NCBI RefSeq assembly: GCF_006345805.1
Contig: NW_021832984.1
Span: 1-52,343, forward strand
Reading direction: 5' to 3'
Source: Octopus sinensis
Taxonomy: Eukaryota
Length of the DNA stretch: 52,343 nucleotides
In this document: positions 12,596-52,343 of the stretch, piece after piece
How the letters are laid out: each line of letters opens with the position of its first letter
How positions within the stretch are numbered: the first letter of the stretch is position 1
Position numbers and translations under genes: made by a program
Notes under the pieces: generated by a model
Seen by the model: the letters and a program-made list of their open reading frames with translations, nothing else
Databases searched by the model: none
What the model was told of the DNA's origin: nothing

Positions 12596-12608
12596 CACAT
12601 CGAGGAAA
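12596..12608 (+). repeat. Target-site repeat 2 (CACATCGAGGAAA)
   Basis: Direct reading. Confidence 0.9.
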
Positions 12609-14381
12609 TTTACCCAAGTGTGTTGTTATCTGTGATTAGACGTTGAAATTTTGTTGTGTAAAGTGATTAATATCGCGCGAGGCGTTTGCCTCCACGTGTG
12701 GAAACCTTCCGAAGAAGGTGAATTGACCCTCTAGTCATGGCGACTTACGCGGGGGTCACGGGAAAGAAAAATAATGATTCGTCGATAATCGTGAAGGATG
12801 TTTTCTTTGAGAAGAGTAAACTCAAAGAATATGAAAAGCTATTCAAAAGGGAGGGTGATAGCGTGAAGCTAATCCCCCCCGCGAAAGCAAAAGAGGACAA
12901 AGAAAACAAGACTGTAACATATAGAACCCAAGACAAAAATACAAATAAACTGGCAAGAGTGGAGATAGCAGAAATCGAAAAATGTCTGGAAGACATAATG
13001 GGGAAATCGACCTACGTGAGTAGAGGCAAGAAATTTGGTACGGTGGAGGTGAGATGTGCAACGGAAGAAATTGCAGCCTCACTGGCTACCACTGTACTAA
13101 GAGCGGAAACATTTATAATGTGGCCCTCATACAAGGGAAGAAGAGGGGTCCGGGTTAAAATCCCGAATATACCCCCAGAAGTGAAAACAGAATGGCTGGC
13201 AACAGCTATTCTAGGAGCAGCAGAAGAGGAAGTGGAGGTGGAATCCTTTAAGGAGTCCAACGCGATAAACTGGAGAGGATATGGGGTAGAACTGTGTTTG
13301 ATGGCCACAAAAGAGGACATTGAAAGGTTCCCCTACAGAATAGAAATTGAAGATGAGAAAACCCTCAGTGTAATTGTAGAGGGAAGAAAGCCAAACTGCT
13401 ACTTGTGCGGGACAAGGGGGGAACATTAAAAAAGAGTGCCCGTTATACGAATTCGTAGCGGAGTGCGAGCAGGAATTTGAAGAAAGAAGAATACGGTAAA
13501 TGAAAAAGAAAACATAGAAAAGGAAACAAAACAACAAGAGAAAGGAAATAATAAGTCAATGAAGGAAAAGAAATAAAAGAAAAGAAAGAAATAGAACCAA
13601 AACAGAGTCAGGAAAAGAAAAAGGAAAAAGAAACAACAGGAAAAAAACAAGAGAGAGATCAGAATCAAACGAAAAGAAAAGACGGCACACAAAAAGAAAA
13701 AGAAAAGGAACATAAAACACGAGAGAAAGAGAGAACAGACAAAGAACCAAAAGACAAGAGAAGGAAGAAGAAAGAAAAGAAGCAAAAAGAGAGAAAGAGA
13801 GAAACAAAGAGAGGAGAACAAGGAAGAAATAAGCCCGAAAAGAAAAACGAAGGAAAACGTAGGACGGAAACAAGATTACTGCTTCTACAAGTTAGTAACC
13901 TTCCATTTCTGCCCTGGAAATGAAAGAATTAACATGTAATACGGAGGGACATATATGGGTCAACAGGATGACCGATCAGTGGCAGGAGACTGCTCTAATC
14001 CCCGAAGAAAGAGTCGCTGAGTTCCTCAGAGCTGCCGGAGAGAGTGTAATATTTTACACGAGTGTTCGAGTGAGAGAGCGGCTGCCTGAGGGCTCAGTGA
14101 TTGACTTTAGAGAATTGAAAGTTATTATGGAATACGTATAGAATTGTGAGAAGAGAGAGAAGAAAAGAAGAGAAAAAAGAAAATATTGTGAAATATATGT
14201 GACGAAAATGTAACCTCTCGATTCCGGGGATCGAGTGGGCATTTACATCTCATTGTAAATATTCTTTCATATGTCATTTTTTACTATTAATTTTTCCTTT
14301 TCTTGTCATTCGCTTTCTTATTTTAAGTTCCCCGATTGTACTGTCCCATCTATGTTCGCCCCTTGTGGGTAGTAATAAAAT
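12609..14381 (+). mobile_element. ORF1-only non-autonomous Tx1-type retroelement, copy 2
   Basis: Colinear with copy 1, same 5' end, scattered substitutions. Confidence 0.85.
12737..14141 (+). CDS. ORF1p, copy 2 (frameshifted)
   Basis: ORF-track 12737-13429 (230 aa, ends in the zinc knuckle) and 13920-14141 (C-terminal domain). Confidence 0.75.
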
Positions 14382-14396
14382 CACATGGAGGAAAGC
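14382..14396 (+). repeat. Target-site repeat 3 (CACATGGAGGAAAGC)
   Basis: Identical 15-mer at 19606-19620. Confidence 0.92.
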
Positions 14397-15960: not shown

Positions 15961-15968
15961 GGTAAGTA

Positions 15969-18900
15969 ATGGATTACATTTATGTTGGTTGTTTGAATGT
16001 GCGCGGCCTGGGAGCAGGCTGGAAGCAAGGTCGCTTCCTGCATGATATCAGGTCGCGTAACTTAGATGTTATTGTTGCTACAGAAACCCGGTTAGAGGGG
16101 CCAAGAGGTCTACTCCCGCTGTTTGACGGCTACGAGAGTTTTTTCTCTCCTGGCAGTCCTACAGGCGGGAGTGGGGTGTTGGTCCTATTAAAAAGAACCG
16201 GGTTTCTGAGAAAAAGTTAATTTTTGCAGATCCAGAAGGTAGGCTGGTCGTCATGGATTTGACGTTCAGTAATGGTAAAGTTATCAGACTGGTTGCAATT
16301 TACGCGCACCCAACCATACAGGGCAAAGTGATTATTTTCGTGAACTAGAAAACTTTCTTGGTACTTCGCATTCATTAGTGGTGCTAGGAGACTTTAACAC
16401 AATTTGCAAAGCGGATGTAGATTATGTTGGCTCGTGTCCAGATAGAAAAGGCAACAGTGGCTTCATGGAACTGCTAAGCCGCTTTGAGCTAGCAGATCCT
16501 TATAGGCTGGAATTTCCGAACGCTCCATTGTGGACATGGTCAAACAGCGACGGATCTTCCAGGTCATATTTAGATAGAATACTAATTAGAAAAGTAGACA
16601 GTAAAATAGCTAAGTGTCCACAGTTTTACCCGATCAGCTACAGTGATCATAAATGGTCACTTGTAAGCTTGACATAGATAAGGTTAAAATAGAGGATCCG
16701 GGTACTGGAAACTTAATACGTCCCTTTGGCGATTAAGGAGTACAAAGACCGGATTAGGAATATAATTCAGAGGGCACTATCTGGTACCATCATTAATAAC
16801 AAATGGTGGTACGCCCTCAAACGAGCCATCAAGTTTGAGTCTATTAGATATAGCATAGGAGTAGTGGCTAGAGAGGCTAGAAGGGAAACTACTCTAGTTA
16901 AGGAATTAGAGGAAGCCATGAAAACTGGCTCTGCGGCTCAGGTGGCGTCCAAGAGACTGGTGTTAAACCAGCACCTCGAGGCCAAACACATGGGCTGCAT
17001 TGTCAGGGCTAGAATCCGCCATATGGGATGTGAAGGAATCAACGCCGTGAGATGGGCCCGAGTGGTGGAAGCTCGGCATGGTAACGATGCCACGATTCGA
17101 TCTTTGACGAACCAACAAGGTGAGTTGATAAACGAACCCGAAGAGATGTGTGAGGCCTTTCAGGAGCACTTCGCTCAGCTTTTCGGTGAGTGCGGCGGAC
17201 TGGATAGGAGGAGGGCCTTTACGGACCTACTCGACGGGCTGCCGCGCTTATCGGGGCGAGATGCGGAGGGCTGTGAAGGGCCAATCACGCCTGAGGAGGT
17301 GGTGAGGCAATGGCGGACTGCGGCGCGGGCAAGGCGCCGGGTTTGGATGGTCTACCCTATGAGTTATATAAGAGTATGCCAGACTTGTTCGGGCACCTAC
17401 TGGCGGAGGTCTATGCGAACTGGCAGCAGAACGGGCTTATACCCAGATCTGTGCGCCGGGGATTAGTGACTCTCGTCAGAAAGGACCCGAGCAAGGGGGA
17501 GTGCATTGATAATTTCAGGCCCATCACTCTGCTAAACACAGAGTTGAAGATTTTGGCCAAAGTGTTATCGGAAAGATTGGCGCGTGTCGCGGATGGTCTG
17601 ATCGGAGAGGCACAGACATGTGCCGTTCCGGGCAGATCCATTCAGGATAATCTCCATCTAATGCGGTACACTATAGAGGGGTTTAATAGTGATTCTGGCA
17701 AGGGTGGGGCACTGGTCCAATTAGACCAATCTAAAGCTTTTGATAGGGTCGACCATCGTTACCTGGTATCTGCCCTGGCACAGTTCGGGCTGAGCCTTGG
17801 CTTCCTCAGGTGGATTATCCAAATGTATGATAACATCGACTCGGTAGTTCGGGTGAACGGCTTCTTGTCGAAGCCGTTCAAAATCAAACGCTCAGTTCGT
17901 CAAGGGTGTCCGCTCTCCCCGCTTTTGTACGTGATGGCTCTTGAGCCATTACTGCGAAAACTGAGCGGCATCCCGAGACAGCCAGGTAATGGAAAATCAG
18001 TGTCAGCGTACGCGGATGACATCACCATCATCGTAACCGAAATGGACCACCTATGTAAAGTAGGCAAGGCCATAGAGGTTTACGAGACGGTGACAGGAGC
18101 AAAAGTTAATCGCGAAAAGTCAGTCGGCTTGCAACTCGGCACCTGGAGAGGCAAGTCGATGCCTCCTGACAGCGTCGTGGGACGTTGGACGGAGGGTCCG
18201 ATTAAACTGCTAGGGGTCTGGTTCGGTCCAGACCTCCAAATAGAGAAGAATTGGGGCGAGGTAACGAGCAAGGTGGCTGCAGTAGCCAAGACCTGGTCTT
18301 GGCGGTGGCTATCCCTGAAAGGGAGGGCGGAGGTGGCCAATGTGTTTATCGCATCGGTTATCACCTACCGCCTTTCCGTCGTTCCTTGCCCTGATTCGTG
18401 GTTGATCAAGTTGGAAAGACAGCTCTTCTACTTCTACTTCTTGGGAAGGGCGGGAAACCACTTGTGAACGCTCTACTTGCTGTCAACAACCGTTAAAGGG
18501 TGGGCTAGGGATGCCTTGGCTGATGATGCGCAGACATGCGCTGAGGTTAAGACATCTGTGGCTCTACATGGATGGTGAACGGGTGTGGTCTTCGCTAGCA
18601 AAACTGATGTTTCCCAAGTTCACTAGTTTCGGTGGATGGGAAACTGGCTGAATCGTAGATCGAAACTTGGTACTTGGTACACGGAGTGTCGCAAGGCTCT
18701 CCTGCTATTCCGTCGCTCGGGCAACGCCTGCGGTGGGGGTTCCACCACATTCTTCTATAGAGGGTTGGTAGAGGCGGAATGTGAAGATACCTTGGGGGAA
18801 ACCCTAGGTCTCGACGATAATCAGCTGGCCAGTCTGTTCCGACGTACGTTCGAGCCGAGGACACTGGACAACTTCCAGAAGTCTCTGGCATGGCAATGCT

Positions 18901-19361
18901 ACAGAGGAGCTCTACCTGTTCGGGATAAACTCGCAAGGCACGGTGGCCAAGACAGTCCGATATGTCCAAGATGCGGGCGGGATAGGAAACCGTCCCGCAC
19001 GCTATTGTTCATTGTCCGGACGTGTCTGCTGTGTGTTTATGCCGAACACCTGTTGTCAGGTACACGAAGAGTACAGCTGTCGACTGAGTCGATTACAAAA
19101 ATTGACCCACCGGATTTCCTCGTGAATGAAGGTAAGTTTCGTTTTCTCGTTGTAGTAGCAATTGCGAAAGAGGTGATATGGAAGACGAGAAAGAAAGGTT
19201 TACAGTCAGGCAAGTTCATCTCCGGCCCTGGTTTGATGAATTATTTCATCTTTCACCTGAAAAGGAAGATAGGGCTGGAGAGAATATGCCTGACTAGGAG
19301 AGTGTATGAAGAACGATGGAAGGATGTAGCACGAAAGTTGCGAGTGAAAGATACAACATAA
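15969..19361 (+). CDS. ORF2p APE endonuclease / reverse transcriptase / C-terminal zinc finger (several frameshifts)
   Basis: Motifs CLNVRGL, VLGDFN, YLDRILI, SDH, GKAPGLDGLP, FRPITLLNTELKILAK, LDQSKAFDRV, SVRQGCPLSPLLY, YADD, LSLKGR, CPRCG. Confidence 0.9.
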
Positions 19362-34705: not shown

Positions 34706-36476
34706 TACTTTGATACTTTGATACTTTGATAGGTTTAGGCCAGTTATTAAAAAAGGCCATGTCTAACTTAATAGCACCACCTGGTGAAGGATATCAAGTC
34801 AGAATTTGGGCACTATGGCCCACTCAAGTAGAGAGTTATTGTTTACAGAAACATATCCGGGTGTAGGGGGTTTATCCGGGATTTCTTGAAGGAATCTGTC
34901 CAAAGACTTCTTGAACCCTATAGGGTTAGTTTCTGTTTTAATGTGTTTTGGTGTAATGTTAAAGAGAGCGGGGCCAATTGAGGTGAAATAATTGTGCCGT
35001 ATTGTTGTTGTGAGATGAGAGTGCGATTTTTGTTTTGGGCAGATGGCACGGGGCCCAAGCCTTGGGTGTACCTTAAAGGTGATGCCAACATCATTTGGGC
35101 AATGCTGATGGAATATTTTCCACATCATGCAGTTGATGTAGCGCTCACGACGACGTTGGAGAGAATAAAGTTTTAGCTTTTCTAGTCGACCCCAGTAGTC
35201 GAGGCCTGTCATGCCATCTATCTTTTTTGTGATTGCCCTTTGAGTGCTTCAACTTTTATGATATCATGTGGGGAGACCACAGTGGACAACAGTATTCAAG
35301 GTGGGGTCTGGCAAAAGTGGAGAAGAGAAGGATAATGGTGTGGATACCTCTCGACTTGAAAGTTCTGAGAATCCAGGAACACATTCTGCGGGCCATGTCA
35401 ACTTTGGTGTTTATATGAGTGGCCCAGCTTATGTTGTCCACAATTACTCCCAAGTCTCTGATGTTGTTGGACGCCGCGAGAGTTTCACCTGATGGAAGGG
35501 AGTATGGGAGTTTCAGGGCATCCTCTTTTCCAAAGTAGATTAACTCAAATTTATCCTCGTTCAGCAGCATATTGTTTTTTTCTGCCCATTGGATAACAGC
35601 CAGTAGATCTGACTGAAGGCATGTCCGGTCACTCGCCTCATTTATGACCTTCTGTAGCTTGGAATCATCTGCAAAGATTTTTATGTTGCTGTGCTTGATG
35701 ATGTCATTAATGTCATTAATGTAAATGATGAAAAGAAGTGGGCCCAGCACAGTGCCTTGCGGAACGCCACTACTGACTTTGGCTGGGCTTCATTTTACCC
35801 CTTCAACTACAACATGTTGAGATCTGTCTGTCAGGAAACACGTGATCCATTTCAGTAACTTTCCAGAGACACCAATGTTGGATAGTTTTTTCAATAGGAT
35901 CTTGTGATCGACCCTGTCGAAGGCCTTACTGAAATCAAGGTAGATGACATCGGTGTTGGAGCCCTCTCCCAAAGCTCTCAGAATGTCCTCAAAGTGATGC
36001 AGGAGCTGCGTTAGGCAGTCCCTTCCATTACGGAACCCATGTTGGTTGGAGATCAGCCGTCTGTTGCTTTCCAGAAATTGGGTTATTCGAGATCTCACCA
36101 CCCTCTCAAATATCTTGAAGATATGAGAGGTGAGTGAGATCGGACGGTAGTTCACTACAAGGGACTTGTTTCCCTTTTTGAAAACTGGGACAACAGACTG
36201 GGACAGAAGGTTTTTTGGAATATAGCCAGCAACCAGTGAGTTTCTCCACAGATAAGCAAGGGGAGATGCAAGTTGGTGTCGACAAACCTTCAGGACACAA
36301 CCAGGGAACCTATCGGTGCCTACTGTTGAATTGTGTTTTATTTCGTTTATCGCCGCTAAGACATCAGGGGCACTAAAAGTTATGTCCAATATAGTGTGTT
36401 GGGGGTTGACATCACTGATACAGCCCAGATCGGCCATATCAGGATTGCTGAAAACAGAGCAGTATTGTTTCTGCAG
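34706..36476 (-). mobile_element. CR1-group LINE, 3' half (RT), (TATCAAAG)n tail; 5' side runs into the satellite
   Basis: NYRPISLTS, QHGFRNGRDC, IYLDFSKAFDRVDH, LGPLLFIIYIND, FADDSK, RPHLEYC; tail reads TACTTTGA x3 on +. Confidence 0.92.
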
Positions 36477-39400
36477 AAAAAAGAGCAGTATTGTTTCTGC
36501 AGAAAACAGAGCAGTATTGTTTCTGCAGAAAACAGAGCAGTATTGTTTCTGCAGAAAACAGAGCAGTATTGTTTCTGCAGAAAATAGAGCAGTATTGTTT
36601 CTGCAGAAAACAGAGCAGTATTGTTTCTGCAGAAAATAGAGCAGTAATGTTCTGCAGAAAAGAGAGCAGTATTGTTTCTGCAGAAAAGAGAGCAGTATTG
36701 TTTCTGCAGAAAACAGAGCAGTATTGTTTCTGCAGAAAACAGAGCAGTATTGTTTCTGCAGAAAACAGAGCAGTTTTGTTTCTGCAGAAAATAGAGCAGT
36801 ATTGTTTCTGCAGAAAACAGAACAGTATTGTTTCTGCAGAAAATAGAGCAGTATTGTTTCTGCAGAAAACAGAGCAGTATAGTTTCTGCAGAAAACAGAG
36901 CAGTATTGTTTCTGCAGAAAACAGAGCAGTATTGTTTCTGCAGAAAATAGAGCAGTATTGTTTCTGCAGAAAACAGAGCAGTATTGTTTCTGCAGAAAAC
37001 AGAGCAGTATTGTTTCTGCAGAAAACAGAGCAGTATTGTTTCTGCAAAAACAGAGCAGTATTGTTTCTTTTTCTGCAGAAAACAGAGCAGTATTGTTTCT
37101 GCAGAAAACAGAGCAGTATCGTTTCTGCAGAAAAAGAGCAGTATTGTTTCTGAAAAAATAGAGCAGTATTGTTTCTGCAGAAAACAGAGCAGTATTGTTT
37201 CTGCAGAAAACAGAGCAGTATTGTTTCTGCAGAAAATAGAGCAGTATTGTTTCTGCAGAAAACAGAGCAGTATTGTTTCTGCAGAAAACAGAGCAGTATT
37301 GTTTCTGCAGAAAACAGAGCAGTATTGTTTCTGCAGAAAACAGAGCAGTATTGTTTCTGCAGAAAACAGAGCAGTATTGTTTCTGCAGAAAATAGAGCAG
37401 TATTGTTTCTGCAGAAAACAGAGCAGTATTGTTTGTTTCTGCAGAAAACAGAGCAGTATTGATTCTGCAGAAAACAGAGCAGTATTGTTTCTGCAGAAAA
37501 CAGAGCAGTATTGTTTCTGCAGAAACAGAGCAGTATTGTTTCTGCAGAAAACAGAGCAGTATTGTTTCTGCAGAAAGAGAGCAGTATTGTCTCGGCAGAA
37601 AACAGAGCAGTATTGTTTCTGCAGAAAAGAGAGCATATTGTTCTGCACAAAAGAGAGCAGTATTGTTTCTGTAGAAAAGAGAGCAGTATTGTTTCTGCAG
37701 AAAATAGAGCAGTATTGTTTCTGCAGAAAACAGAGCAGTTTTGTTTCTGCAGAAATAGAGCAGTTTTGTTTCTGCAGAAAATAGAGCAGTATTGTTTCTG
37801 CAGAAAACAGAGCAGTTTGTTTCTGTAGAAAAGAGAGCAGTATTGTTTCTGCAGAAAATAGAGCAGTATTGTTTCTGCACAAAGAGAGCAGTTTTGTTTC
37901 TGTAGAAAGAGAGCAGTATTGTTTCTGCAGAAAATAGAGCAGTATTGTTTCTGCAGAAAACAGAGCAGTTTTTGTTTCTGCAGAAAATAGAGCAGTATTG
38001 TTTCTGCAGAAACAGAGCAAGTATTGTTTCTGCAGAAAACAGAGCAGTTTTGTTTCTGCAGAAATAGAGCAGTATTGTTTCTGCGCAGAAAACAGAGCAG
38101 TATTGTTTCTGCAGAAATAGAGCAGTATTGTTTCTGCAGAAAACAGAGCAGTATTGTTTCTGCAGAAAACAGAGCAGTATTGTTTCTGCAGAAAATAGAG
38201 CAGTATTGTTTCTGCAGAAATAGAGCAGTATTGTTTCTGCAGAAAACAGCAGTATTGTTTCTGCTGCAGAAAACAGAGCAGTATTGTTTCTGCTGAAAAA
38301 TAGAGCAGTATTGTTTCTGCAGAAACAGAGCAGTATTGTTTCTGCAGAAACAGAGCAGTATTGTTTCTGCAGAAAATGAGCAGTATTGTTTCTGCTGCAG
38401 AAATAGAGCAGTATTGTTTCTGCAGAAAACAGAGCAGTATTGTTTCTGCAGAAAACAGAGCAGTATTGTTTCTGCAGAAAACAGAGCAGTTTTTGTTTCT
38501 GCAGAAAATAGAGCAGTATTGTTTCTGTAGAAAACAGAGCAGTATTGTTTCTGCAGAAATAGAGCAATATTGTTTCTGCAGAAATAGCAGTATTGTTTCT
38601 GCAGAAAACAGAGCAGTATTGTTTCTGCAGAAAATAGAGCAGTATTGTTTCTGCAGAAAACAGAGCAGTATTGTTTCTTCAGAGAAAACAGAGCTGAATT
38701 GTTTCTGCAGAAAATAGAGCAGTATTTTTTCTGCAGGAAACAGAGCAGTATTGTTTCTGCAGAAAACAGAGCAGTATTGTTTCTGCAGAAATAAGCAGCA
38801 TTGTTTCTGCAGAAAACAGAGCAGTATTGTTTCTGCAGAAAACAGAGCAGTATTGTTTCTGCAGAAAACAAGAGCAGTATTGTTTCTGCAGAAAACAGAG
38901 CAGTATTGTTTCTGCAGAAACAGAGCAGTATTGTTTCTGCAGAAAACAGAGCAGTATTGTTTCTGCAGAAAACAGAGCAGTATTGTTTCTGCAGAAAACA
39001 GAGCAGTATTGTTTCTGCAGAAAATAGAGCAGTATTGTTTCTGCAGAAAACAGAGCAGTATTGTTTCTGCAGAAAACAGAGCAGTATTGTTTCTGCAGAA
39101 AACAGAGCAGTATTGTTTCTGCAGAAAACAGAGCATATTGTTCTGCAGAAAACAGAGCAGTATTGTTTCTGCAGAAAATAGCAGTATTTGTTTCTGCAGA
39201 AAACAGAGCAGTATTGTTTCTCTGCAGAAAAAAGAACTGAATGTTTCTGCAGAAATAGAGCAGTATTGTTTCTGCAGAAAACAGAGCAGTATTGTTTCTG
39301 CAGAAAACAGAGCAGTATTGTTTCTGCAGAAAATAGAGCAGTATTGTTTTCTGCAGAAAACAGAGCAGTATTGTTTCTGCAGAAAACAGAGCAGTATTGT

Positions 39401-42400
39401 CTCGGCAGAAAAGAGCAGTATTGTTTCTGCAGAAAAGAGCAGTATTGTTTCTGCAGAAAACAGAGCAGTATTGTTTCTGCAGAAATAGAGCAGTATTGTT
39501 TCTGCAGAAAACAGAGCAGTATAGTTTTTCTGCAGAAAACAGAGCAGTATTGTTTCTGCAGAAAACAGAGCAGTATTGTTTCTGCAGAAAATAGAGCAGT
39601 ATTGTTTCTGCAGAAAACAGCAGTATTGTTTCTGCAGAAAACAGAGCAGTATTGTTTCTGCAGAAAACAGAGCAGTATTGTTTCTGCAGAAAACAGAGCA
39701 GTATTGTTTCTGCAGAAAACAGAGCAGTATTGTTTCTGCAGAAAACAGAGCAGTATCGTTTCTGCAGAAAAAAGAGCAGTATTGTTTCTGAAAAAAATAG
39801 AGCAGTATTGTTTCTGCAGAAAACAGAGCAGCATTGTTTCTGCAGAAAACAGAGCAGTATTGTTTCTGCAGAAAATAGAGCAGTATTGTTTCTGCAGAAA
39901 ACAGAGCAGTATTGTTTCTGCAGAAAACAGAGCAGTATTGTTTCTGCAGAAAACAGAGCAGTATTGTTTCTGCAGAAAACAGAGCAGTATTGTTTCTGCA
40001 GAAAATAGAGCAGTATTGTTTCTGCAGAAAATAGAGCAGTATTGTTTCTGCAGAAAACAGAGCAGTATTGTTTCTGCAGAAAACAGAGCAGTATTGATTC
40101 TGCAGAAAACAGAGCAGTATTGTTTCTGCAGAAAACAGAGCAGTATTGTTTCTGCAGAAAACAGAGCAGTATTGTTTCTGCAGAAAACAGAGCAGTATTG
40201 TTTCTGCAGAAAAGAGAGCAGTATTGTCTCGGCAGAAAACAGAGCAGTATTGTTTCTGCAGAAAAGAGAGCAGTATTGTTCTGCACAAAAGAGAGCAGTA
40301 TTGTTTCTGTAGAAAAGAGAGCAGTATTGTTTCTGCAGAAAATAGAGCAGTATTGTTTCTGCAGAAAACAGAGCAGTTTTGTTTCTGCAGAAAATAGAGC
40401 AGTTTTGTTTCTGCAGAAAATAGAGCAGTATTGTTTCTGCAGAAAACAGAGCAGTTTTGTTTCTGTAGAAAAGAGAGCAGTATTGTTTCTGCAGAAAATA
40501 GAGCAGTATTGTTCTGCACAAAAGAGAGCAGTTTTGTTTCTGTAGAAAAGAGAGCAGTATTGTTTCTGCAGAAAATAGAGCAGTATTGTTTCTGCAGAAA
40601 ACAGAGCAGTTTTGTTTCTGCAGAAAATAGAGCAGTATTGTTTCTGCAGAAGACAGAGCAGTATTGTTTCTGCAGAAAACAGAGCAGTTTTGTTTCTGCA
40701 GAAAATAGAGCAGTATTGTTTCTGCAGAAAACAGAGCAGTATTGTTTTGTTTCTGCAGAAAAGAGCAGTATTGTTTCTGCAGAAACAGAGCAGTATTGTT
40801 CTGCAGAAAACAGAGCAGTTTGTTTCTGCAGAAAATAGAGCAGTATTGTTTCTGCAGAAAATAGAGCAGTATTGTTTCTGCAGAAAACAGAGCAGTATTG
40901 TTTCTGCAGAAAACAGAGCAGTATTGTTTCTGCAGAAAATAGAGCAGTATTGTTTCTGCAGAAAACAGAGCAGTATTGTTTCTGCAGAAAACAGAGCAGT
41001 ATTGTTTCTGCAGAAAATAGAGCAGTATTGTTTCTGCAGAAAATAGAGCAGTATTGTTTCTGCAGAAAACAGAGCAGTATTGTTTCTGCAGAAACAGAGC
41101 AGTATTGTTTCTGCAGAAAACAGAGCAGTTTTGTTTCTGCAGAAAATAGAGCAGTATTGTTTCTGTAGAAAACAGAGCAGTATTGTTTCTGCAGAAAATA
41201 GAGCAATATTGTTTCTGCAGAAAATAGAGCAGTATTGTTTCTGCAGAAAACAGAGCAGTATTGTTTCTGCAGAAAATAGAGCAGTATTGTTTCTGCAGAA
41301 AACAGAGCAGTATTGTTTCTTCAGAAAACAGAGCTGAATTGTTTCTGCAGAAAATAGAGCAGTATTGTTTCTGCAGGAAACAGAGCAGTATTGTTTCTGC
41401 AGAAAACAGAGCAGTATTGTTTCTGCAGAAAATAGAGCAGTATTGTTTCTGCAGAAAACAGAGCAGTATTGTTTCTGCAGAAAACAGAGCAGTATTGTTT
41501 CTGCAGAAAACAGAGCAGTATTGTTTCTGCAGAAAACAGAGCAGTATTGTTTCTGCAGAAAACAGAGCAGTATTGTTTCTGCAGAAAACAGAGCAGTATT
41601 GTTTCTGCAGAAAACAGAGCAGTATTGTTTCTGCAGAAACAGAGCAGTATTGTTTCTGCAGAAAATAGAGCAGTATTGTTTCTGCAGAAAACAGAGCAGT
41701 ATTGTTTCTGCAGAAAACAGAGCAGTATTGTTTCTGCAGAAAACAGAGCAGTATTGTTTCTGCAGAAAACAGAGCAGTATTGTTTCTGCAGAAAACAGAG
41801 CAGTATTGTTTCTGCAGAAAATAGAGCAGTATTGTTTCTGCAGAAAACAGAGCAGTATTGTTTCTGCAGAAAAAAGAACTGAATTGTTTCTGCAGAAAAT
41901 AGAGCAGTATTGTTTCTGCAGAAAACAGAGCAGTATTGTTTCTGCAGAAAACAGAGCAGTATTGTTTCTGCAGAAAATAGAGCAGTATTGTTTCTGCAGA
42001 AAACAGAGCAGTATTGTTTCTGCAGAAAACAGAGCAGTATTGTCTCGGCAGAAAAGAGAGCAGTATTGTTTCTGCAGAAAAGAGAGCAGTATTGTTTCTG
42101 CAGAAAACAGAGCAGTATTGTTTCTGCAGAAAATAGAGCAGTATTGTTTCTGCAGAAAACAGAGCAGTATTGTTTCTGCAGAAAACAGAGCAGTATTGTT
42201 TCTGCAGAAAACAGAGAAGTATTGTTTTTGCAGAAAACAGAGCAGTATTGTTTCTGCAGAAAACAGAGCAGTATTGTTTCTGCAGAAAACAGAGCAGTAT
42301 TGTTTCTGCAGAAAACAGAGCAGTATTGTTTCTGCAGAAACAGAGCAGTATTGTTTCTGCAGAAAACAGAGCAGTATTGTTTCTGCAGAAAACAGAGCAG

Positions 42401-45400
42401 TATTGTTTCTGTAAAAATAGAGCAGTATTGTTTCTGCAGAAAACAGAGCAGTATGTTTTTCTGCAGAAACAGAGCAGTATTGTTTCTGCAGAAAATAGAG
42501 CAGTATTGTTTCTGCAGAAAATAGAGCAGTATGTTTTCTCTGCAGAAAACAGAGCAGTATTGTTTCTGCTGCAGAAAACAGAGCAGTATTGTTTCTGCAG
42601 AAAAGAGCAGTATTGTTCTGCAGAAAAGAGAGCAGTATTGTTTCTGCAGAAAACAGAGCAGTATTGTTTCTGCAGAAAACAGAGCAGTATTGTTTCTGCA
42701 GAAAACAGAGCAGTATTGTTTCTGCAGAAAACAGAGCAGTTTTGTTTCTGCAGAAAATAGAGCAGTATTGTTTCTGCAGAAAACAGAGCAGTATTTTTCT
42801 GCAGAAAACAGAGCAGTATTGTTTTCTGCAGAAAACGGAGCAGTATTGTTTCTGCAGAAAACAGAGCAGTATTGTTTCTCTGTAGAAAATAGAGCAGTAT
42901 TGTTTCTGCAGAAAACAGAGCAGTATTGTTTCTGCAGAAACAGAGCAGTATTGTTTCTGCAGAAAATAGAGCAGTATTGTTTCTGCAGAAAATAGAGCAG
43001 TATTGTTTCTGCAGAAACAGAGCATATTGTTTCTGTTTCTCTGCAGAAAACAGAGCAGTATTGTTTCTGCAGCGAAACAGAGCAGTATTGTTCTGCAGAA
43101 AAGAGAGCAGTATTGTTTCTGCAGAAAACAGAGCAGTATTGTTTCTGCAGAAAACAGAGCAGTATTGTTTCTGCAGAAAATAGAGCAGTATTGTTTCTGC
43201 TGAAAATAGAGCAGTATTGTTTCTGCAGAAAACAGAGCAGTATTGTTTCTGCAGAAAATAGAGCAGTATTGTTTCTGCAGAAAATAGAGCAGTATTGTTT
43301 CTGCAGAAAACAGAGCAGTATTGTTTCTGCAGAAAACAGAGCAGTATTGTTTCTGCAGAAAACAGAGCAGTATTGTTCTGCAGAAAAGAGAGCAGTCTTG
43401 TTTCTGCAGAAAACCGAGCAGTATTGTTTCTGCAGAAAACAGAGCAGTATTGTTTCTGCAGAAACCAGAGCAGTATTGTTTCTGCAGAAAACAGAGCAGT
43501 TTTGTTTCTGCAGAAAATAGAGCAGTATTGTTTCTGCAGAAAACAGAGCAGTATTGTTTCTGCAGAAAATAGAGCAGTATTGTTTCTGCAGAAAATAGAG
43601 CAGTATTGTTTCTGCAGAAAACAGAGCAGTATTGTTTCTGCAGAAAATAGTGCAGTATTGTTTCTGCAGTAAACAGAGCAGTATTGTTTCTTCAGAAAAT
43701 AGAGCTGAATTGTTTCTGCAGAAAATAGAGCAGTATTGTTTCTGCAGGAAACAGAGCAGTATTGTTTCTGCAGGAAACAGAGCAGTATTGTTTCTGCAGA
43801 AAATAGAGCAGTATTGTTTCTGCAGAAAACAGAGCAGTATTGTTTCTGCAGAAAACAGAGCAGTATTGTTTCTGCAGAAAACAGAGCAGTATTGTTCCTG
43901 CAGAAAACAGAGCAGTATTGTTTCTGCAGAAAACAGAGCAGTATTGTTTCTGCAGAAAACAGAGCAGTATTGTTTCTGCAGAAAACAGAGCAGTTTTGTT
44001 TCTGCAGAAAATAGAGCAGTATTGTTTCTGCAGTAAACAGAGCAGTATTGTTTCTGCAGAAAATAGAGCAGTATTGTTTCTGCAGAAAATAGAGCAGTAT
44101 TGTTTCTGCAGAAAACAGAGCAGTATTGTTTCTGCAGAAAATAAAGCAGTATTGTTTCTGCAGAAAACAGAGCATTATTGTTTCTGCAGAAAACAGAGCT
44201 GAATTGTTTCTGCAGAAAATAGAGCAGTATTGTTTCTGCAGGAAACAGAGCAGTATTGTTTCTGCAGAAAACAGAGCAGTATTGTTTCTGCAGAAAATAG
44301 AGCAGTATTGTTTCTGCAGAAAACAGAGCAGTATTGTTTCTGCAGAAAACAGAGCAGTATTGTTTCTGCAGAAAACATAGCAGTATTGTTTCTGCAGAAA
44401 ACAGAGCAGTATTGTTTTTGCAGAAAATAGAGCAGTATTGTTTCTCTGCAGAAAATAGAGCAGTATTGTTTCTGCAGAAAACAGAGCAGTATTGTTTCTG
44501 CAGAAACAGAGCAGTATTGTTTTCTGCAGAAAACAGAGCAGTATTGTTTCTGCAGAAAATAGAGCAGTATTGTTTCTGCAGAAAACAGAGCAGTATTGTT
44601 TCTGCTGCAGAAAACAGAGCAGTATTGTTTCTGCAAAAATAGAGCAGTATTGTTTCCGCAGAAATAGAGCAGTATTGTTTCTGCAGAAAACAGAGCAGTA
44701 TTGTTTCTGCAGAAAACAGAGCAGTATTGTTTCTGCAGAAAACAGAGCAGTATTGATTCTGCAGAAAACAGAGCAGTATTGTTTCTGCAGAAAACAGAGC
44801 AGTATTGTTTCTGCAGAAAACAGAGCAGTATTGTTTCTGCAGAAAACAGAGCAGTATTGTTTCTGCAGAAAACAGAACAGTATTGTTTCTGCAGAAAACA
44901 GAGCAGTATTGTTTCTGCAGAAAATAGAGCAGTATTGTTTCTGCAGAAAACAGAGCAGTATTGTTTCTGCAGAAAACAGAGCAGTATTGTCTCGGCAGAG
45001 ATGGGAGCAGTATTGTTTCTGCAGAAAACAGAGCAGTATTGTTTCTGCAGAAAACAGAGCAGTATTGTTTCTGCAGAAAATAGAGCAGTATGTTTCTGCA
45101 GAAAACAGAGCAGTATTGTTTCTGCAGAAAACAGAACTGAATTGTTTCTGCAGAAAATAGAGCAGTATTGTTTCTGCAGAAAACAGAGCAGTATTGTTTC
45201 TGCAGAAAACAGAGCAGTATTGTTTCTGCAGAAAAGAGAGCAGTATTGTTTCTGCAGAAAACAGAGCAGTATTGTTTCTGCAGAAAATAGAGCAGTATGT
45301 TTCTGCAGAAAACAGAGCAGTATTGTTTCTGCAGAAAACAGAACTGAATTGTTTCTGCAGAAAATAGAGCAGTATTGTTTCTGCAGAAAACAGAGCAGTA

Positions 45401-48400
45401 TTGTTTCTGCAGAAAACAGAGCAGTATTGTTTCTGCAGTAAATACAGCAGTATTGTTTCTGCAGAAAACAGAGCAGTATTGTTTCTGCAGAAAACAGAGC
45501 AGTATTGTCTCGGCAGAAAAGAGAGCAGTATTGTTTCTGCAGAAAAGAGAGCAGTATTGTTTCTGCAGAAAACAGAGCAGTATTGTTTCTGCAGAAAATA
45601 GAGCAGTATTGTTTCTGCAGAAAACAGAGCAGTATTGTTTCTGCAGAAAACAGAGCAGTATTGTTTCTGCAGAAAACAGAGAAGTATTGTTTTTGCAGAA
45701 AACAGAGCAGTATTGTTTCTGCAGAAAACAGAGCAGTATTGTTTCTGCAGAAAACAGAGCAGTATTGTTTCTGCAGAAAACAGAGCAGTATTGTTTCTGC
45801 AGAAAACAGAGCAGTATTGTTTCTGCAGAAAACAGAGCAGTATTGTTTCTGCAGAAAACAGAGCAGTATTGTTTCTGTAGAAAATAGAGCAGTATTGTTT
45901 CTGCAGAAAACAGAGCAGTATTGTTTCTGCAGAAAACAGAGCAGTATTTTTTCTGCAGAAAATAGAGCAGTATTGTTTCTGCAGAAAAGAGAGCAGTATT
46001 GTTTCTGCAGAAAAGAGAGCAGTATTGTTTCTGCAGAAAATAGAGCAGTATTGTTTCTGCAGAAAACAGAGCAGTATTGTTTCTGCAGAAAATAGAGCAG
46101 TATTGTTTCTGCAGAAAACAGAGCAGTATTGTTTCTGCAGAAAACAGAGCTGAATTGTTTCTGCAGAAAATAGAGCAGTATTGTTTCCGTAGAAAACAGA
46201 GCAGTATTGTTTCTGCAGAAAACAGAGCAGTATTGTTTCTGCAGAAAATAGAGCAGTATTGTTTCTGCAGAAAACAGAGCAGTATTGTTTCTGTAGAAAA
46301 CAGAGCAGTATTGTTTCTGCAGAAACAGAGCAGTATTGTTTCTGCAGAAAACAGAGCAGTATTGTTTCTGCAGAAAACAGAGCAGTATTGTTTCTGCAGA
46401 AAACAGAGCAGTATTGTTTCTGCTAGAAAAAGAGCAGTATTGTTTCTGCAGAAAACAGAGCAGTATTGTTTCTGCAGAAAACAGAGCAGTATTGTTTCTG
46501 CAGAAAATAGAGCAGTATTGTTTCTGCAGAAAATAGAGCAGTATTGTTTCTGCAGAAAACAGAGCAGTATTGTTTCTGCAGAAAACAGAGCAGTATTGTT
46601 TCTGCAGAAAAGAGAGCAGTATTGTTCTGCAGAAAAGAGAGCAGTATTGTTTCTGCAGAAAACAGAGCAGTAATGTTTCTGCAGAAAACAGAGCAGTATT
46701 GTTTCTGCAGAAAACAGAGCAGTATTGTTTCTGCAGAAAAGAGAGCAGCTTTGTTTCTGCAGAAAATAGAGCAGTATTGTTTCTGCAGAAAACAGAGCAG
46801 TATTGTTTCTGCAGAAAACAGAGCAGTATTGTTTCTGCAGAAAACAGAGCAGTATTGTTTCTGCAGAAAACAGAGCAGTATTTTTTCTGTAGAAAATAGA
46901 GCAGTATTGTTTCTGCAGAAAACAGAGCAGTATTGTTTCTGCAGAAAACAGAGCAGTGTTGTTTCTGCAGAAAATAGAGCAGTATTGTTTCTGCAGAAAA
47001 GAGAGCAGTATTGTTTCTGCAGAAAATAGAGCAGTATTGTTTCTGCAGAAAACAGAGTAGTATTGTTTCTGCAGAAAATAGAGCAGTATTGTTTCTGCAG
47101 AAAACAGAGCAGTATTGTTTCTGCAGAAAACAGAGCTGAATTGTTTCTGCAGAAAATAGAGCAGTATTGTTTCCGTAGAAAACAGAGCAGTATTGTTTCT
47201 GCAGAAAACAGAGCAGTATTGTTTCTGCAGAGAATAGAGCAGTATTGTTTCTGCAGAAAACAGAGCAGTATTGTTTCTGCAGAAAACAGAGCAGTATTGT
47301 TTCTGCAGAAAATAGAGCAGTATTGTTTCTGCAGAAAACAGAGCAGTATTGTTTCTGCAGAAAACAGAGCAGTATTGTCTCGGCAGAGATGGGAGCAGTA
47401 TTGTTTCTGCAGAAAACAGAGCAGTATTGTTTCTGCAGAAAACAGAGCAGTATTGTTTCTGCAGAAAATAGAGCAGTATTGTTTCTGCAGAAAACAGAAC
47501 TGAATTGTTTCTGCAGAAAATAGAGCAGTATTGTTTCTGCAGAAAACAGAGCAGTATTGTTTCTGCAGAAAACAGAGCAGTATTGTTTCTGCAGTAAATA
47601 CAGCAGTATTGTTTCTGCAGAAAACAGAGCAGTATTGTTTCTGCAGAAAACAGAGCAGTATTGTCTCGGCAGAAAAGAGAGCAGTTGTTTTTCTGCAGAA
47701 AGAGAGCAGTATTGTTTCTGCAGAAAACAGAGCAGTATTGTTTCTGCAGAAAATAGAGCAGTATTGTTTCTGCAGAAAACAGAGCAGTATTGTTTCTGCA
47801 GAAAACAGAGCAGTATTGTTTCTGCAGAAAACAGAGAAGTATTGTTTTTGCAGAAAACAGAGCAGTATTGTTTCTGCAGAAAACAGAGCAGTATTGTTTC
47901 TGCAGAAAACAGAGCAGTATTGTTTCTGCAGAAAACAGAGCAGTATTGTTTCTGCAGAAAACAGAGCAGTATTGTTTCTGCAGAAAACAGAGCAGTATTG
48001 TTTCTGCAGAAAACAGAGCAGTATTGTTTCTGTAGAAAATAGAGCAGTATTGTTTCTGCAGAAAACAGAGCAGTATTGTTTCTGCAGAAAACAGAGCAGT
48101 ATTGTTTCTGCAGAAAATAGAGCAGTATTGTTTCTGCAGAAAATAGAGCAGTATTGTTTCTGCAGAAAAGAGAGCAGTATTGTTTCTGCTGCAGAAATAG
48201 AGCAGTATTGTTTCTGCAGAAAACAGAGCAGTATTGTTTCTGCAGAAATAGAGCAGTATTGTTTCTGCAGAAAACAGAGCAGTATTGTTTCTGCAGAAAA
48301 CAGAGCTGAATTGTTTCTGCAGAAAATAGAGCAGTATTGTTTCCGTAGAAAACAGAGCAGTATTGTTTCTGCAGAAAACAGAGCAGTATTGTTTCTGCAG

Positions 48401-51400
48401 AAAATAGAGCAGTATTGTTTCTGCAGAAAACAGAGCAGTATTGTTTCTGTAGAAAACAGAGCAGTATTGTTTCTGCAGAAAACAGAGCAGTATTGTTTCT
48501 GCAGAAAACAGAGCAGTATTGTTTCTGCAGAAAACAGAGCAGTATTGTTTCTGCAGAAAACAGAGCAGTATTGTTTCTGTAGAAAAAAGAGCAGTATTGT
48601 TTCTGCAGAAAACAGAGCAGTATTGTTTCTGCAGAAAACAGAGCAGTATTGTTTCTGCAGAAAATAGAGCAGTATTGTTTCTGCAGAAAATAGAGCAGTA
48701 TTGTTTCTGCAGAAAACAGAGCAGTATTGTTTCTGCAGAAACAGAGCAGTATTGTTTCTGCAGAAAAGAGAGCAGTATTGTTCTGCAGAAAAGAGAGCAG
48801 TATTGTTTTTCTGCAGAAAACAGAGCAGTAATGTTTCTGCAGAAAACAGAGCAGTATTGTTTCTGCAGAAAACAGAGCAGTATTGTTTCTGCAGAAAAGA
48901 GAGCAGCTTTGTTTCTGCAGAAAATAGAGCATATGTTTCTGCAGAAAACAGAGCAGTATTGTTTCTGCAGAAAACAGAGCAGTATTGTTTCTGCAGAAAA
49001 CAGAGCAGTATTGTTTCTGCAGAAAACAGAGCAGTATTTTTTCTGTGAAAATAGAGCAGTATTGTTTCTGCAGAAAACAGAGCAGTATTGTTTCTGCAGA
49101 AAACAGAGCAGTGTTGTTTCTGCAGAAATAGAGCAGTATTGTTTCTGCAGAAAGAGAGCAGTATTGTTTCTGCAGAAAATAGAGCAGTATTGTTTCTGCA
49201 GAAAACAGAGTAGTATTGTTTCTGCAGAAAATAGAGCAGTATTGTTTCTGCAGAAAACAGAGCAGTATTGTTTCTGCAGAAAACAGAGCTGAATTGTTTC
49301 TGCAGAAAATAGAGCAGTATTGTTTCCGTAGAAAACAGAGCAGTATTGTTTCTGCAGAAAACAGAGCAGTATTGTTTCTGCAGAGAATAGAGCAGTATTG
49401 TTTCTGCAGAAAACAGAGCAGTATTGTTTCTGCAGAAAACAGAGCAGTATTGTTTCTGCAGAAAATAGAGCAGTATTGTTTCTGCAGAAAACAGAGCAGT
49501 ATTGTTTCTGCAGCAAAAACAGAGCAGTATTGTCTCGGCAGAATGGGAGCAGTATTGTTTCTGCAGAAAACAGAGCAGTATTGTTTCTGCAGAAAACAGA
49601 GCAGTATTGTTTCTGCAGAAATAGAGCAGTATTGTTTCGGCAGAAACAGATCAGTATTGTTTCTGCAGAAAACAGAGCAGTATTGTTTCTGCAGAAAACA
49701 GAGCAGTATTGTTTCTGCAGAAAACAGAGCAGTATTGTTTCTGCAGAAAACAGAGCAGTATTGTTTCTGCAGAATAGAGCAGTATTGTTTCTGCAGAAAA
49801 GAGAGCAGTATTGTTTCTCTGCAGAAAACAGACTGAATTGTTTCTGCAGAAAATAGAGCAGTATTGTTTCTGCAGAAAACAGAGCAGTATTGTTTCTGCA
49901 GAAAACAGAGCAGTATTGTTTCTGCAGAAAATAGAGCAGTATTGTTTCTGCAGAAAACAGAGCAGTATTGTTTCTGCAGAAAACAGAGCAGTATTGTCTC
50001 GGCAGAAAAGAGAGCAGTATTGTTTCTGCAGAAAAGAGAGCAGTATTGTTTCTGCAGAAAAGAGAGCAGTATTGTTTCTGCAGAAAATAGAGCAGTATTG
50101 TTTCTGCAGAAAACAGAGCAGTATGGTTTCTGCAGAAAACAGAGCAGTATTGTTTCTGCAGAAACAGAGAATATTGTGTTTTTTTTGCAGAAAACAGAGC
50201 AGTATTGTTTCTGCAGAAAACAGAGCAGTATTGTTTCTGCAGAAAACAGAGCAAATTGTTTCTGCAGAAAACAGAGCAGTATTGTTTCTGCAGAAAACAG
50301 AGCAGTATTGTTTCTGCAGAAAACAGAGCAGTATTGTTTCTGCAGAAAACAGAGCAGTATTGTTTCTGTAGAAAATAGAGCAGTATTGTTTCTGCAGAAA
50401 ACAAAGCAGTATTGTTTCTGCAGAAAACAGAGCAGTATTGTTTCTGCAGAAAATAGAGCAGTATTGTTTCTGCAGAAAATAGAGCAGTATTGTTTCTGCA
50501 GAAAACAGAGCAGTATTGTTTCTGCAGAAAACAGAGCAGTATTGTTTCTGCAGAAAACAGAGCAGTATTGTTCTGCAGAAAAGAGGGCAGTATTGTTTCT
50601 GCAGAAAACAGAGCAGTATTGTTTCTGCAGAAAACAGAGCAGTATTTTTTCTGCAGAAAACAGAGCAGTATTGTTTCTGCAGAAAACAGAGCAGTTTTGT
50701 TTCTGCAGAAAATAGAGCAGTATCGTTTCTGCAGAAAACAGAGCAGTATTGTTTCTGCAGAAAATAGAGCAGTATTGTTTCTGCAGAAAATAGAGCAGTA
50801 TTGTTTCTGCAGAAAAGAGAGCAGTATTGTTTCTGCAGAAAACAGTGCAGTATTGTTTCTGCAGAAAACAGAGCAGTATTGTTTCTGCAGAAAACAGAGC
50901 TGAATTGTTTCTGCAGAAAATAGAGCAGTATTGTTTCCGCAGAAACCAGAGCAGTATTGTTTCTGCAGAAAACAGAGCAGTATTGTTTCTGCAGAAAATA
51001 GAGCAGTATTGTTTCTGCAGAAAACAGAGCAGTATTGTTTCTGCAGAAAACAGAGCAGTATTGTTTCTGCAGAAAACAGAGCAGTATTGTTTCTGCAGAA
51101 AACAGAGCAGTATTGTTTCTGCAGAAAACAGAGCAGTATTGTTTCTGCAGAAAATAGAGCAGTATTGTTTCTGCAGAAAATAGAGCAGTATTGTTTCTGC
51201 AGAAAACAGAGCAGTATTGTTTCGGCAGAAAACAGAGCAGTATTGTTTCTGCAGAAAACAGAGCAGTATTGATTCTGCAGAAAACAGAGCAGTATTGTTT
51301 CTGCAGAAAACAGAGCAGTATTGTTTCTGCAGAAAACAGAGCAGTATTGTTTCTGCAGAAAACAGAGCAGTATTGTTTCCGCAGAAAACAGAGCAGTATT

Positions 51401-52343
51401 GTTTCTGCAGAAAACAGAGCAGTATTGTTTCTGCAGAAAATAGAGCAGTATTGTTTCTGCAGAAAATAGAGCAGTATTGTTTCTGCAGAAATCAGAGCAG
51501 TATTGTTTCTGCAGAAAACAGAGCAGTATTGTTTCTGCAGAAAACAGAGCAGTATTGTTCTGCAGAAAAGAGAGCAGTATTGTTTCTGCAGAAAACAGAG
51601 CGCTATTGTTTCTGCAGAAAACAGAGCAGTATTGTTTCTGCAGAAAACAGAGCAGTATTGTTTCTGCAGAAAATAGAGCAGTATTGTTTCTGCAGAAAAT
51701 AGAGCAGTATTGTTTATGCAGAAAACAGAGCAGTATTGTTTATGCAGAAAATAGAGCAGTATTGTTTCTGCAGAAAACAGAGCAGTATTGTTTCTGCACA
51801 AAACAGAGCTGAATTGTTTCTGCAGAAAATACAGCAGTATTGTTTCCGCAGAAAACAGAGCAGTATTGTTTCTGCAGAAAACAGAGCAGTATTGTTTCTG
51901 CAGAAAACAGAGCAGTATTGTTTCTGCAGGAAATAGAGCAGTATTTTTTCTGCAGAAAACAGAGCAGTATTGTTTCTGCAGAAAATAGAGCAGTATTGTT
52001 TCTGCAGAAAACAGAGCCGTATTGTTTCTGCAGAAAACAGAGCAGTATTGTTTCTGCAGAAAATTGAGCAGTATTGTTTCTGCAGAAAACAGAGCAGTAT
52101 TGTTTCTGCAGAAAATAGAGCAGTATTGTTTCTGCCTAAAACAGAGCAGTATTGTTTCTGCAGAAAACAGAGCAGTATTGTTTCTGCAGAAAATAGAGCA
52201 GTTTTGTTTCTGCAGAAAACAGAGCAGTATTGTTTCTGCAGAAAACAGAGCAGTATTGTTTCTGCAGAAAACAGAGCAGTATTGTTTCTGCAGAAAATAG
52301 AGCAGTATTGTTTCTGCAGAAAACAGAGCAGTATTGTTTCTGC
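36451..52343. repeat. Satellite DNA, 26-bp monomer AAAA(C/T)AGAGCAGTATTGTTTCTGCAG, about 610 copies, runs off the window
   Basis: Direct reading. Each junction forms the palindrome TTTCTGCAGAAA (contains a PstI site). Confidence 0.98.

What the first reader, a model, noticed from the sequence alone, without database searches (positions are those of the whole stretch)
36420..52343. A 16-kb satellite apparently born from 26 bp of LINE ORF2 coding sequence
Seen: on the minus strand the last monomer CTGCAGAAACAATACTGCTCTGTTTT reads LQKQYCSVF and runs in frame into SNPDMADL..DITFSAPDVLAAINEIK..RT. The equivalent ORF2 motif in the other CR1-group LINE here is ILNEQFKSVFT (ORF 2810-3292), at a similar position before the GPDG motif. 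The bases after the unit (CAGCA) resemble the unit start (CTGCA), a microhomology that could seed slippage. Multimerisation creates the palindrome TTTCTGCAGAAA. Inference: in situ amplification to about 610 or more copies inside a LINE.
Basis: partly seen in the sequence, partly recalled or inferred. Interest (0 to 1): 0.8.

Follow-up and report, generated by a model that had tools for sequence, protein, structure and literature searches.

The report
Satellite born inside a LINE gene
A 26-letter piece of a jumping gene's protein-coding sequence is repeated more than 600 times in a row right beside the rest of that gene, in what is likely an octopus genome, so this is probably the birthplace of a satellite DNA: a clean example of a known process, not a new kind.

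Summary
Observation confirmed. A 26-bp array (612 copies, 93% matches) runs from 36446 off the window's end and joins in frame to the 3' part of a LINE ORF2. The unit reads LQKQYCSVF. This is a real ORF2 motif: relatives carry it once, at this position, after non-repetitive sequence (exact in 7 of 306 proteins held; none reads into a second unit). It scores 29 bits, against at most 15.7 in 200,000 shuffles, and aligns with human L1 ORF2p. So the satellite comes from LINE coding sequence (about 0.97). Best named relatives are from Octopus and Argonauta. Birth in this very copy is likely (0.7) but unshown: the far end lies outside the window, no genome is held, and no DNA of an intact copy was obtained. 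The array grew partly by 2.2-2.7 kb block duplications. The proposed seeds (4-of-5 microhomology, hairpin) are weak. Satellites and minisatellites derived from mobile elements, including LINE ORF2, are already in print, so this is a new member of a known kind with an unusually sharp junction. The scan's notes held no earlier report of this array.

The parts
36446..52343 (.). 26-bp tandem array, at least 612 copies, all head to tail, open at the window end
   Evidence: TRF; 259 of 613 parsed units equal the consensus, 2.7% substitutions per base; 0 inverted against 575 direct matches of an 11-base probe
36451..36476 (-). Last unit, equal to the array consensus and in frame with ORF2 (LQKQYCSVF with base 36450); inferred founder unit
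36446..36450 (-). LINE bases after the unit that match the unit start at 4 of 5; possible slippage seed, weak
   Evidence: chance 0.015 per site, 18 of 1718 sites in this LINE copy
34799..36476 (-). 3' part of a decayed CR1-group-like LINE ORF2 (linker helix, RT, C-terminus); stops at 35790-35792 and 35256-35258, frame change near 35250
   Evidence: RVT_1; matches residues 356-929 of Argonauta protein P0304 at 60-63%; stops
34705..34798 (-). Short 3' UTR and tail of 3.4 copies of an 8-bp unit, running into TA-rich sequence: the LINE's 3' end
   Evidence: no special RNA fold, z -0.35
36887..42078 (.). Block duplication in the array, offset 102 units (2652 bp); end approximate
   Evidence: 33 shared rare variants, 0.86% substitutions, score 98.2 against 15.0-18.2 in 20 shuffles
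45330..49643 (.). Block duplication in the array, offset 83 units (2158 bp); end approximate
   Evidence: 38 shared rare variants, 0.56% substitutions, score 123.8

Best explanation
The array is a satellite whose 26-bp unit is a piece of LINE ORF2 coding sequence, and it likely arose by local duplication inside this LINE copy after insertion. Shown: the unit encodes a conserved ORF2 motif, sits at its proper place and frame, and occurs once in relatives; later growth included duplications of 2.2-2.7 kb blocks. Inferred: a first 26-bp duplication by replication slippage or break repair, perhaps helped by the 4-of-5 microhomology; further slippage, possibly favoured by the hairpin that adjacent units can form; then unequal exchange or gene conversion copying kilobase blocks. 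The array is most likely neutral repeat DNA. Its long open frames follow from a stop-free unit and are not genes.
For: With homologues anchored on the LINE without the unit, the nine residues just upstream match LQKQYCSVF at 5 or more places in 91 of 120 full-length relatives. The exact motif occurs once each in 7 of 306 proteins held, and in those inspected it follows SEI, AEI, GEI or SEW; 0 of 306 read into a second unit. Profile score 29.0 bits; best of 200,000 shuffled units 15.7; best other phase of the array 0.0; best of 72,782 nine-mers outside the array 17.6, which is the other LINE's motif. The motif aligns with the IREYYKHLY stretch of human L1 ORF2p, so it is older than the satellite. 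The commonest allele at the most variable site (402 of 612 units) is the one that encodes the family's Val, and the junction unit equals the consensus. The LINE family is high-copy in runs X1 and X2, with depth in 30 of 30 bins, and X2 has contigs that loop back over the unit. Block duplications far exceed shuffles.
Against: The far end of the array and the LINE's 5' half are unseen. No DNA of an intact copy was obtained (empty), so the single-unit test is at protein level only. The queries contained the motif, which biases the short-query hits towards it. The microhomology is found at about 1% of sites, and 7.5% of the LINE's 26-mers tested fold as well when doubled. X2 holds a unit variant absent from the window's copies, so more array exists somewhere, possibly at other loci. 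Indel differences between duplicated blocks (66 against 2 shared) point to sequencing error in the assembly.
Confidence: 0.7

Rival explanations
1. The satellite was born from this motif in another copy of the same LINE family, and this junction is secondary: a segmental duplication of the birthplace, ectopic recombination or conversion between an array and this copy, or a 5'-truncated insertion that annealed to an existing array through the shared 26 bp.
For: The family is high-copy; a unit variant in X2 is not in the window; the LINE stops exactly at the unit, as a homology-guided join would also give.
Against: 26 bp is short for homologous exchange (general knowledge). No LINE pieces or inverted units interrupt 15.9 kb of array. 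A seamless in-frame junction is the direct prediction of birth in place.
Confidence: 0.2
2. A LINE subfamily already carried a short internal array of this unit, was copied by retrotransposition, and this copy's array then expanded.
For: Repeats inside mobile elements can be spread by them (PMC6947457, passages).
Against: A second 26-bp unit shifts the frame and would remove reverse transcriptase from the protein, so such an element would need a helper. None of 306 proteins reads into a second unit, and a search with the array's translation found nothing (weak evidence).
Confidence: 0.06
3. The junction is a coincidence or an assembly error that joins an unrelated or distant satellite to a truncated LINE.
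For: The array carries many homopolymer indels (92 of 157 indels lie at such positions), a sign of noisy long-read consensus; the window ends inside the array; no read or contig listed was seen to span the junction.
Against: Coincidence is excluded by the profile score (0 of 200,000 shuffles). Tandem units exist in X2's contigs, though X2 may be the window's own source. A misjoin would still leave the unit LINE-derived.
Confidence: 0.04

Closest known systems
Satellites with LINE ORF2 sequence: PROsat (Phodopus roborovskii), Pvc 20 (harbour seal), HinfI/SCR1 (chicken CR1), as reviewed in PMC9659126 (passages and section 4 read)
   Same: A tandem array whose unit comes from LINE or CR1 ORF2.
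   Different: The review describes similarity to part of a unit (88% over a small region for PROsat; partial ORF2 plus 3' UTR for HinfI). Here the whole unit is 26 bp of ORF2 and the parent element is still attached in frame.
TE-derived minisatellites: Ms6-hm from MaLR, Alu-derived human minisatellites; Haber and Louis flanking-repeat model (PMC6947457 and PMC3389668, passages)
   Same: Short unit (10-100 bp) cut from a mobile element and expanded by local duplication; 23% of human mini/satellites are reported as TE-derived.
   Different: The array is at least 15.9 kb with kilobase block duplications, the source is coding sequence, and the flanking repeat is only 4 of 5 bases, below the model's 5-10 bp.
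Maize CRM1TR/CRM4TR (PMC3648361, passages)
   Same: Retrotransposon-derived arrays with a traced parent and local homogenisation.
   Different: Units of about 700-800 bp from LTR/UTR of an LTR element, not 26 bp from a LINE ORF.
Octopod CR1-group LINEs (Octopus sinensis XP_029638012.1; Argonauta hians GAB1605924.1)
   Same: 69% identity over 80% of the query; 60-63% over residues 356-929.
   Different: They carry the motif once and have no array.

Membership tests
TE-derived satellite/minisatellite | Long head-to-tail array of a unit | tested here: met
   612 copies, one orientation
TE-derived satellite/minisatellite | Unit homologous to part of a mobile element | tested here: met
   29 bits against at most 15.7 in shuffles; exact motif in 7 of 306 proteins
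TE-derived satellite/minisatellite | Intact elements hold a single copy of the unit | tested here: met
   Met at protein level; DNA of intact copies not obtained
TE-derived satellite/minisatellite | Element resumes on the far side of the array (birth in place) | not testable with these tools
   Window ends in the array; no genome held
Haber-Louis flanking-repeat origin | Unit flanked by 5-10 bp direct repeats in the parent | tested here: inconclusive
   4 of 5 on the visible side; parent DNA upstream of the unit unseen
Classical (peri)centromeric satellite | Very large heterochromatic arrays, chromosomal position, CENP-A binding | not testable with these tools
   Only 15.9 kb visible; block duplications seen but no regular higher-order repeat
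CR1-group LINE | ORF2 with APE endonuclease and RT | tested here: met
   RT in the window copy; APE and RT in relative P0304; feature as in PMC13343379, section read
CR1-group LINE | 3' end in short tandem repeats (recalled), not poly-A (poly-A marks Zenon, PMC13343379) | tested here: met
   3.4 copies of an 8-bp unit at 34705-34731
CR1-group LINE | Placement in the CR1 clade on an RT tree | not tested
   No named CR1, L2 or Zenon references were at hand; the label rests on domain order, tail and recall

The most novel reading that the evidence does not exclude
This locus is the intact birthplace of a young octopod satellite family: one LINE copy split by its own amplified 26 bp, with both halves and the target-site duplication preserved, daughter arrays elsewhere, and related species carrying the LINE but not the array. 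The step from one coding motif to a satellite could then be dated and traced base by base.
Probability: 0.3. Interest if true: 0.62.

Novelty: new member of a known kind. Interest (0 to 1): 0.44.

Why it matters
How satellites begin is hard to study because the source is usually lost; one human survey could explain the start of only 6% of TE-derived tandem repeats by the proposed mechanisms (PMC3389668, abstract and passages). Here the source, the frame and one breakpoint are visible to the base, the parent family is abundant in several related organisms' runs, and the array keeps a record of its own growth. Satellites are 3.12% of the Octopus vulgaris assembly in 80 families (PMC13282606 supplement), and the listings of my searches showed no paper on their origin. 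It does not reveal a new mechanism or function.

Tried and rejected
Own genome: none held. Exact search for the unit in metagenome, viral and prokaryote contigs: 0 hits each. Related-locus searches with the junction protein or its alignment: no confirmed relative. Protein search with the array's translation: 0 of 426 candidates, so no other array or far-end junction was found. Raw-read runs X21 and X22 laid 0 and 8 reads and are no test. One search printed only the best-supported rows, and none showed what intact copies carry upstream of the unit. Two joints from the LINE body into the unit region (35465 to 36447 in X1 and X2; 35121 to 36454 in X1) fit other LINE copies holding the unit but are too short to count. 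Summed depth in the last bin is 2.8 times higher in X2 than in X1, but the tool says depth is no copy number. The long open frames in the array are rejected as genes, since the consensus unit has no stop in any frame. Hairpin as cause of birth: the single unit in LINE context folds no better than shuffles (z -0.47), the dimer and trimer modestly better (z about -2.5), and 7.5% of doubled LINE 26-mers do as well. No other copy of the unit (up to 7 mismatches) and no 5' half of this LINE lies in the rest of the window. Literature searches for an octopus satellite of this kind (listings only) showed none; the library lacks most subscription journals, and the O. vulgaris repeat library itself was not visible, so the unit may already be catalogued there.

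Full report
Observation. TRF reports a single array at 36446-52343, period 26, 612.1 copies, 93% matches, open at the window end. On the minus strand the last unit (36451-36476, plus base 36450) reads LQKQYCSVF and continues in frame through SNPDMADL into an RVT_1 domain, E 2.5e-16. No whole genome is held, so the far end could not be read.

The element. An Argonauta hians protein of 929 residues with APE and RT domains (P0304) aligns to the window from 36479 to 34775 over residues 356-929 at 60-63% identity. The window therefore holds the 3' part of ORF2, and the array begins where the motif begins. The element ends in a short UTR and 3.4 copies of an 8-bp unit at 34705-34731. The best named hit is Octopus sinensis XP_029638012.1 at 69%, so the host is likely an octopod (inference). 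Contigs of runs X1 and X2 cover 30 of 30 bins of the element (7153 and 4769 records laid). By my hand count, 25 of the 40 differences listed there are at 90% or more in both runs, so this copy has drifted at least 1.5% from its family; 94 further rows were not shown. The CR1-group label rests on domain order and tail, not on a tree.

Is the unit really ORF2 sequence? I anchored homologues on the LINE without the unit and read the nine residues upstream. In 91 of 120 full-length relatives, five or more match LQKQYCSVF; a stricter pattern found the motif 51-57 residues before the GPDG-type motif in 63 of 120, against 52 here. Among the closest relatives (59 of 63 anchored, 5 with 9 of 9), P0184, P0250, P0252 and P0261 have the exact motif once, after AEI, GEI, AEI and SEW, and P0243 continues upstream into ordinary linker sequence. 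Of 306 proteins held, 7 have the exact motif and 0 read into a second unit. A profile of the 120 relatives scores the unit at 29.0 bits; 0 of 200,000 shuffled units reach that (best 15.7); the best other phase of the array scores 0.0; the best of 72,782 nine-mers outside the array is the other LINE's LNEQFKSVF at 17.6. The queries contained the motif, which favours it among the short-query hits, but the 120 long hits are carried by 219 residues of RT. The motif also aligns with IREYYKHLY in human L1 ORF2p, so the direction is LINE to satellite.

The array. Of 613 parsed units, 259 equal the consensus; substitutions are 2.7% per base, or 1.4% without one variable site. At that site the majority allele (402 of 612) encodes the family's Val, and the junction unit is pure consensus. 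All units face one way. Rare variants recur in long blocks: 83 units repeated at 2158 bp (38 shared rare variants, 0.56% substitutions) and 98 units at 2652 bp (33 shared, 0.86%), scoring 123.8 and 98.2 against 15.0-18.2 in 20 shuffles. This shows recent kilobase-scale duplication. The second pair differs by 66 indels and shares 2, and 92 of 157 indels lie at homopolymer positions, so many indels are probably sequencing error and the copy number is approximate. X2 has contigs that loop back over the unit, including the 25-bp variant seen 8 times in the window and one variant not in the window. The repeat thus exists in read data and extends beyond what is seen here, though X2 may be the window's own source.

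Mechanism. Shown: source, frame, one breakpoint, growth by block duplication. Inferred: the first duplication. The 4-of-5 microhomology has chance 0.015 and occurs at 18 of 1718 sites of this copy, below the 5-10 bp of the Haber-Louis model as cited in PMC6947457 and PMC3389668 (passages). The unit has a short internal inverted repeat; two or three units fold modestly better than shuffles (z about -2.5) while the single unit in context does not (z -0.47), and 7.5% of doubled LINE 26-mers fold as well. The hairpin may have helped expansion but does not explain why this site was chosen. The PstI core lies within one unit, so tandem copies lengthen the palindrome from 6 to 12 bp. The long open frames in the array follow from a stop-free unit. 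I put birth in this copy at 0.7, a secondary junction after birth in another copy at 0.2, a mobile array-bearing subfamily at 0.06 and coincidence or misassembly at 0.04.

Comparison with what is known. Satellites with LINE ORF2 sequence (PROsat, Pvc 20, chicken HinfI) and minisatellites cut from elements (Ms6-hm, Alu-derived) are reviewed in PMC9659126 (passages and section 4) and PMC6947457 (passages); 23% of human mini/satellites are reported as TE-derived (PMC3389668). This case differs in having a whole unit of only 26 coding bases, a large array and the parent attached in frame. A recent O. vulgaris repeat annotation lists 80 satellite families, 3.12% of the assembly, and CR1 elements, without discussing satellite origins in the parts I saw (PMC13282606: first third read, term searches in text and supplement). 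Searches listed no paper on this satellite; the repeat library was not visible and may hold it.

Verdict. Real feature; LINE origin of the unit nearly certain; birth in place likely but untested; new member of a known kind. Interest 0.44, up to about 0.62 if the far end shows the other half of the element.

Noticed in passing
window 1325-4521 (-): A second, broken CR1-group-like LINE with APE and RT and, upstream, an ORF with a CCCH-like pattern (4234-4521) that may be its ORF1. Its codons before the motif read VSEI.
   Followed up: partly
window 36451-36476 (-): In another frame the unit reads AETIL, which resembles the AEIL/SEIL peptide just upstream of the motif in relatives. If the codons match too, the intact element may already hold a short imperfect repeat here. 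Untested, as no parent DNA was obtained.
   Followed up: no
window 10824-14394 (+): Tandem duplication of about 1.8 kb at 94% identity of a zinc-knuckle, lysine/glutamate-rich ORF (zf-CCHC), upstream of an endonuclease-RT element at about 15966-19361.
   Followed up: partly
window 31804-33112: Two pairs of inverted repeats: 276 bp at 96% (32472-32742 / 32841-33112) and 146 bp at 92% (31804-31946 / 32334-32475), possibly foldback or MITE-like.
   Followed up: no
window 7460-8757 (-): Broken Penelope-like element (weak GIY-YIG and RT matches below Pfam cut-offs); about 100 bp recur inverted at 22367-22466.
   Followed up: partly
window 28268-28975 (+): Broken mariner-type transposase (Transposase_1, E 4.4e-27).
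   Followed up: partly
window 33225-34365: A 1.1-kb TA microsatellite (585 copies) about 340 bp from the LINE's tail.
   Followed up: no
window 34800-36475: Runs under eight organism labels hold about 45% of this LINE's sampled words, which suggests a family shared at high identity across related organisms; only four runs were laid.
   Followed up: partly
protein P0255 (ENA, 667 aa): A hit that is itself a tandem repeat translation with a unit of about 51 residues, weakly matching the GTDRFPGC region; probably a chance match, possibly another repeat.
   Followed up: no
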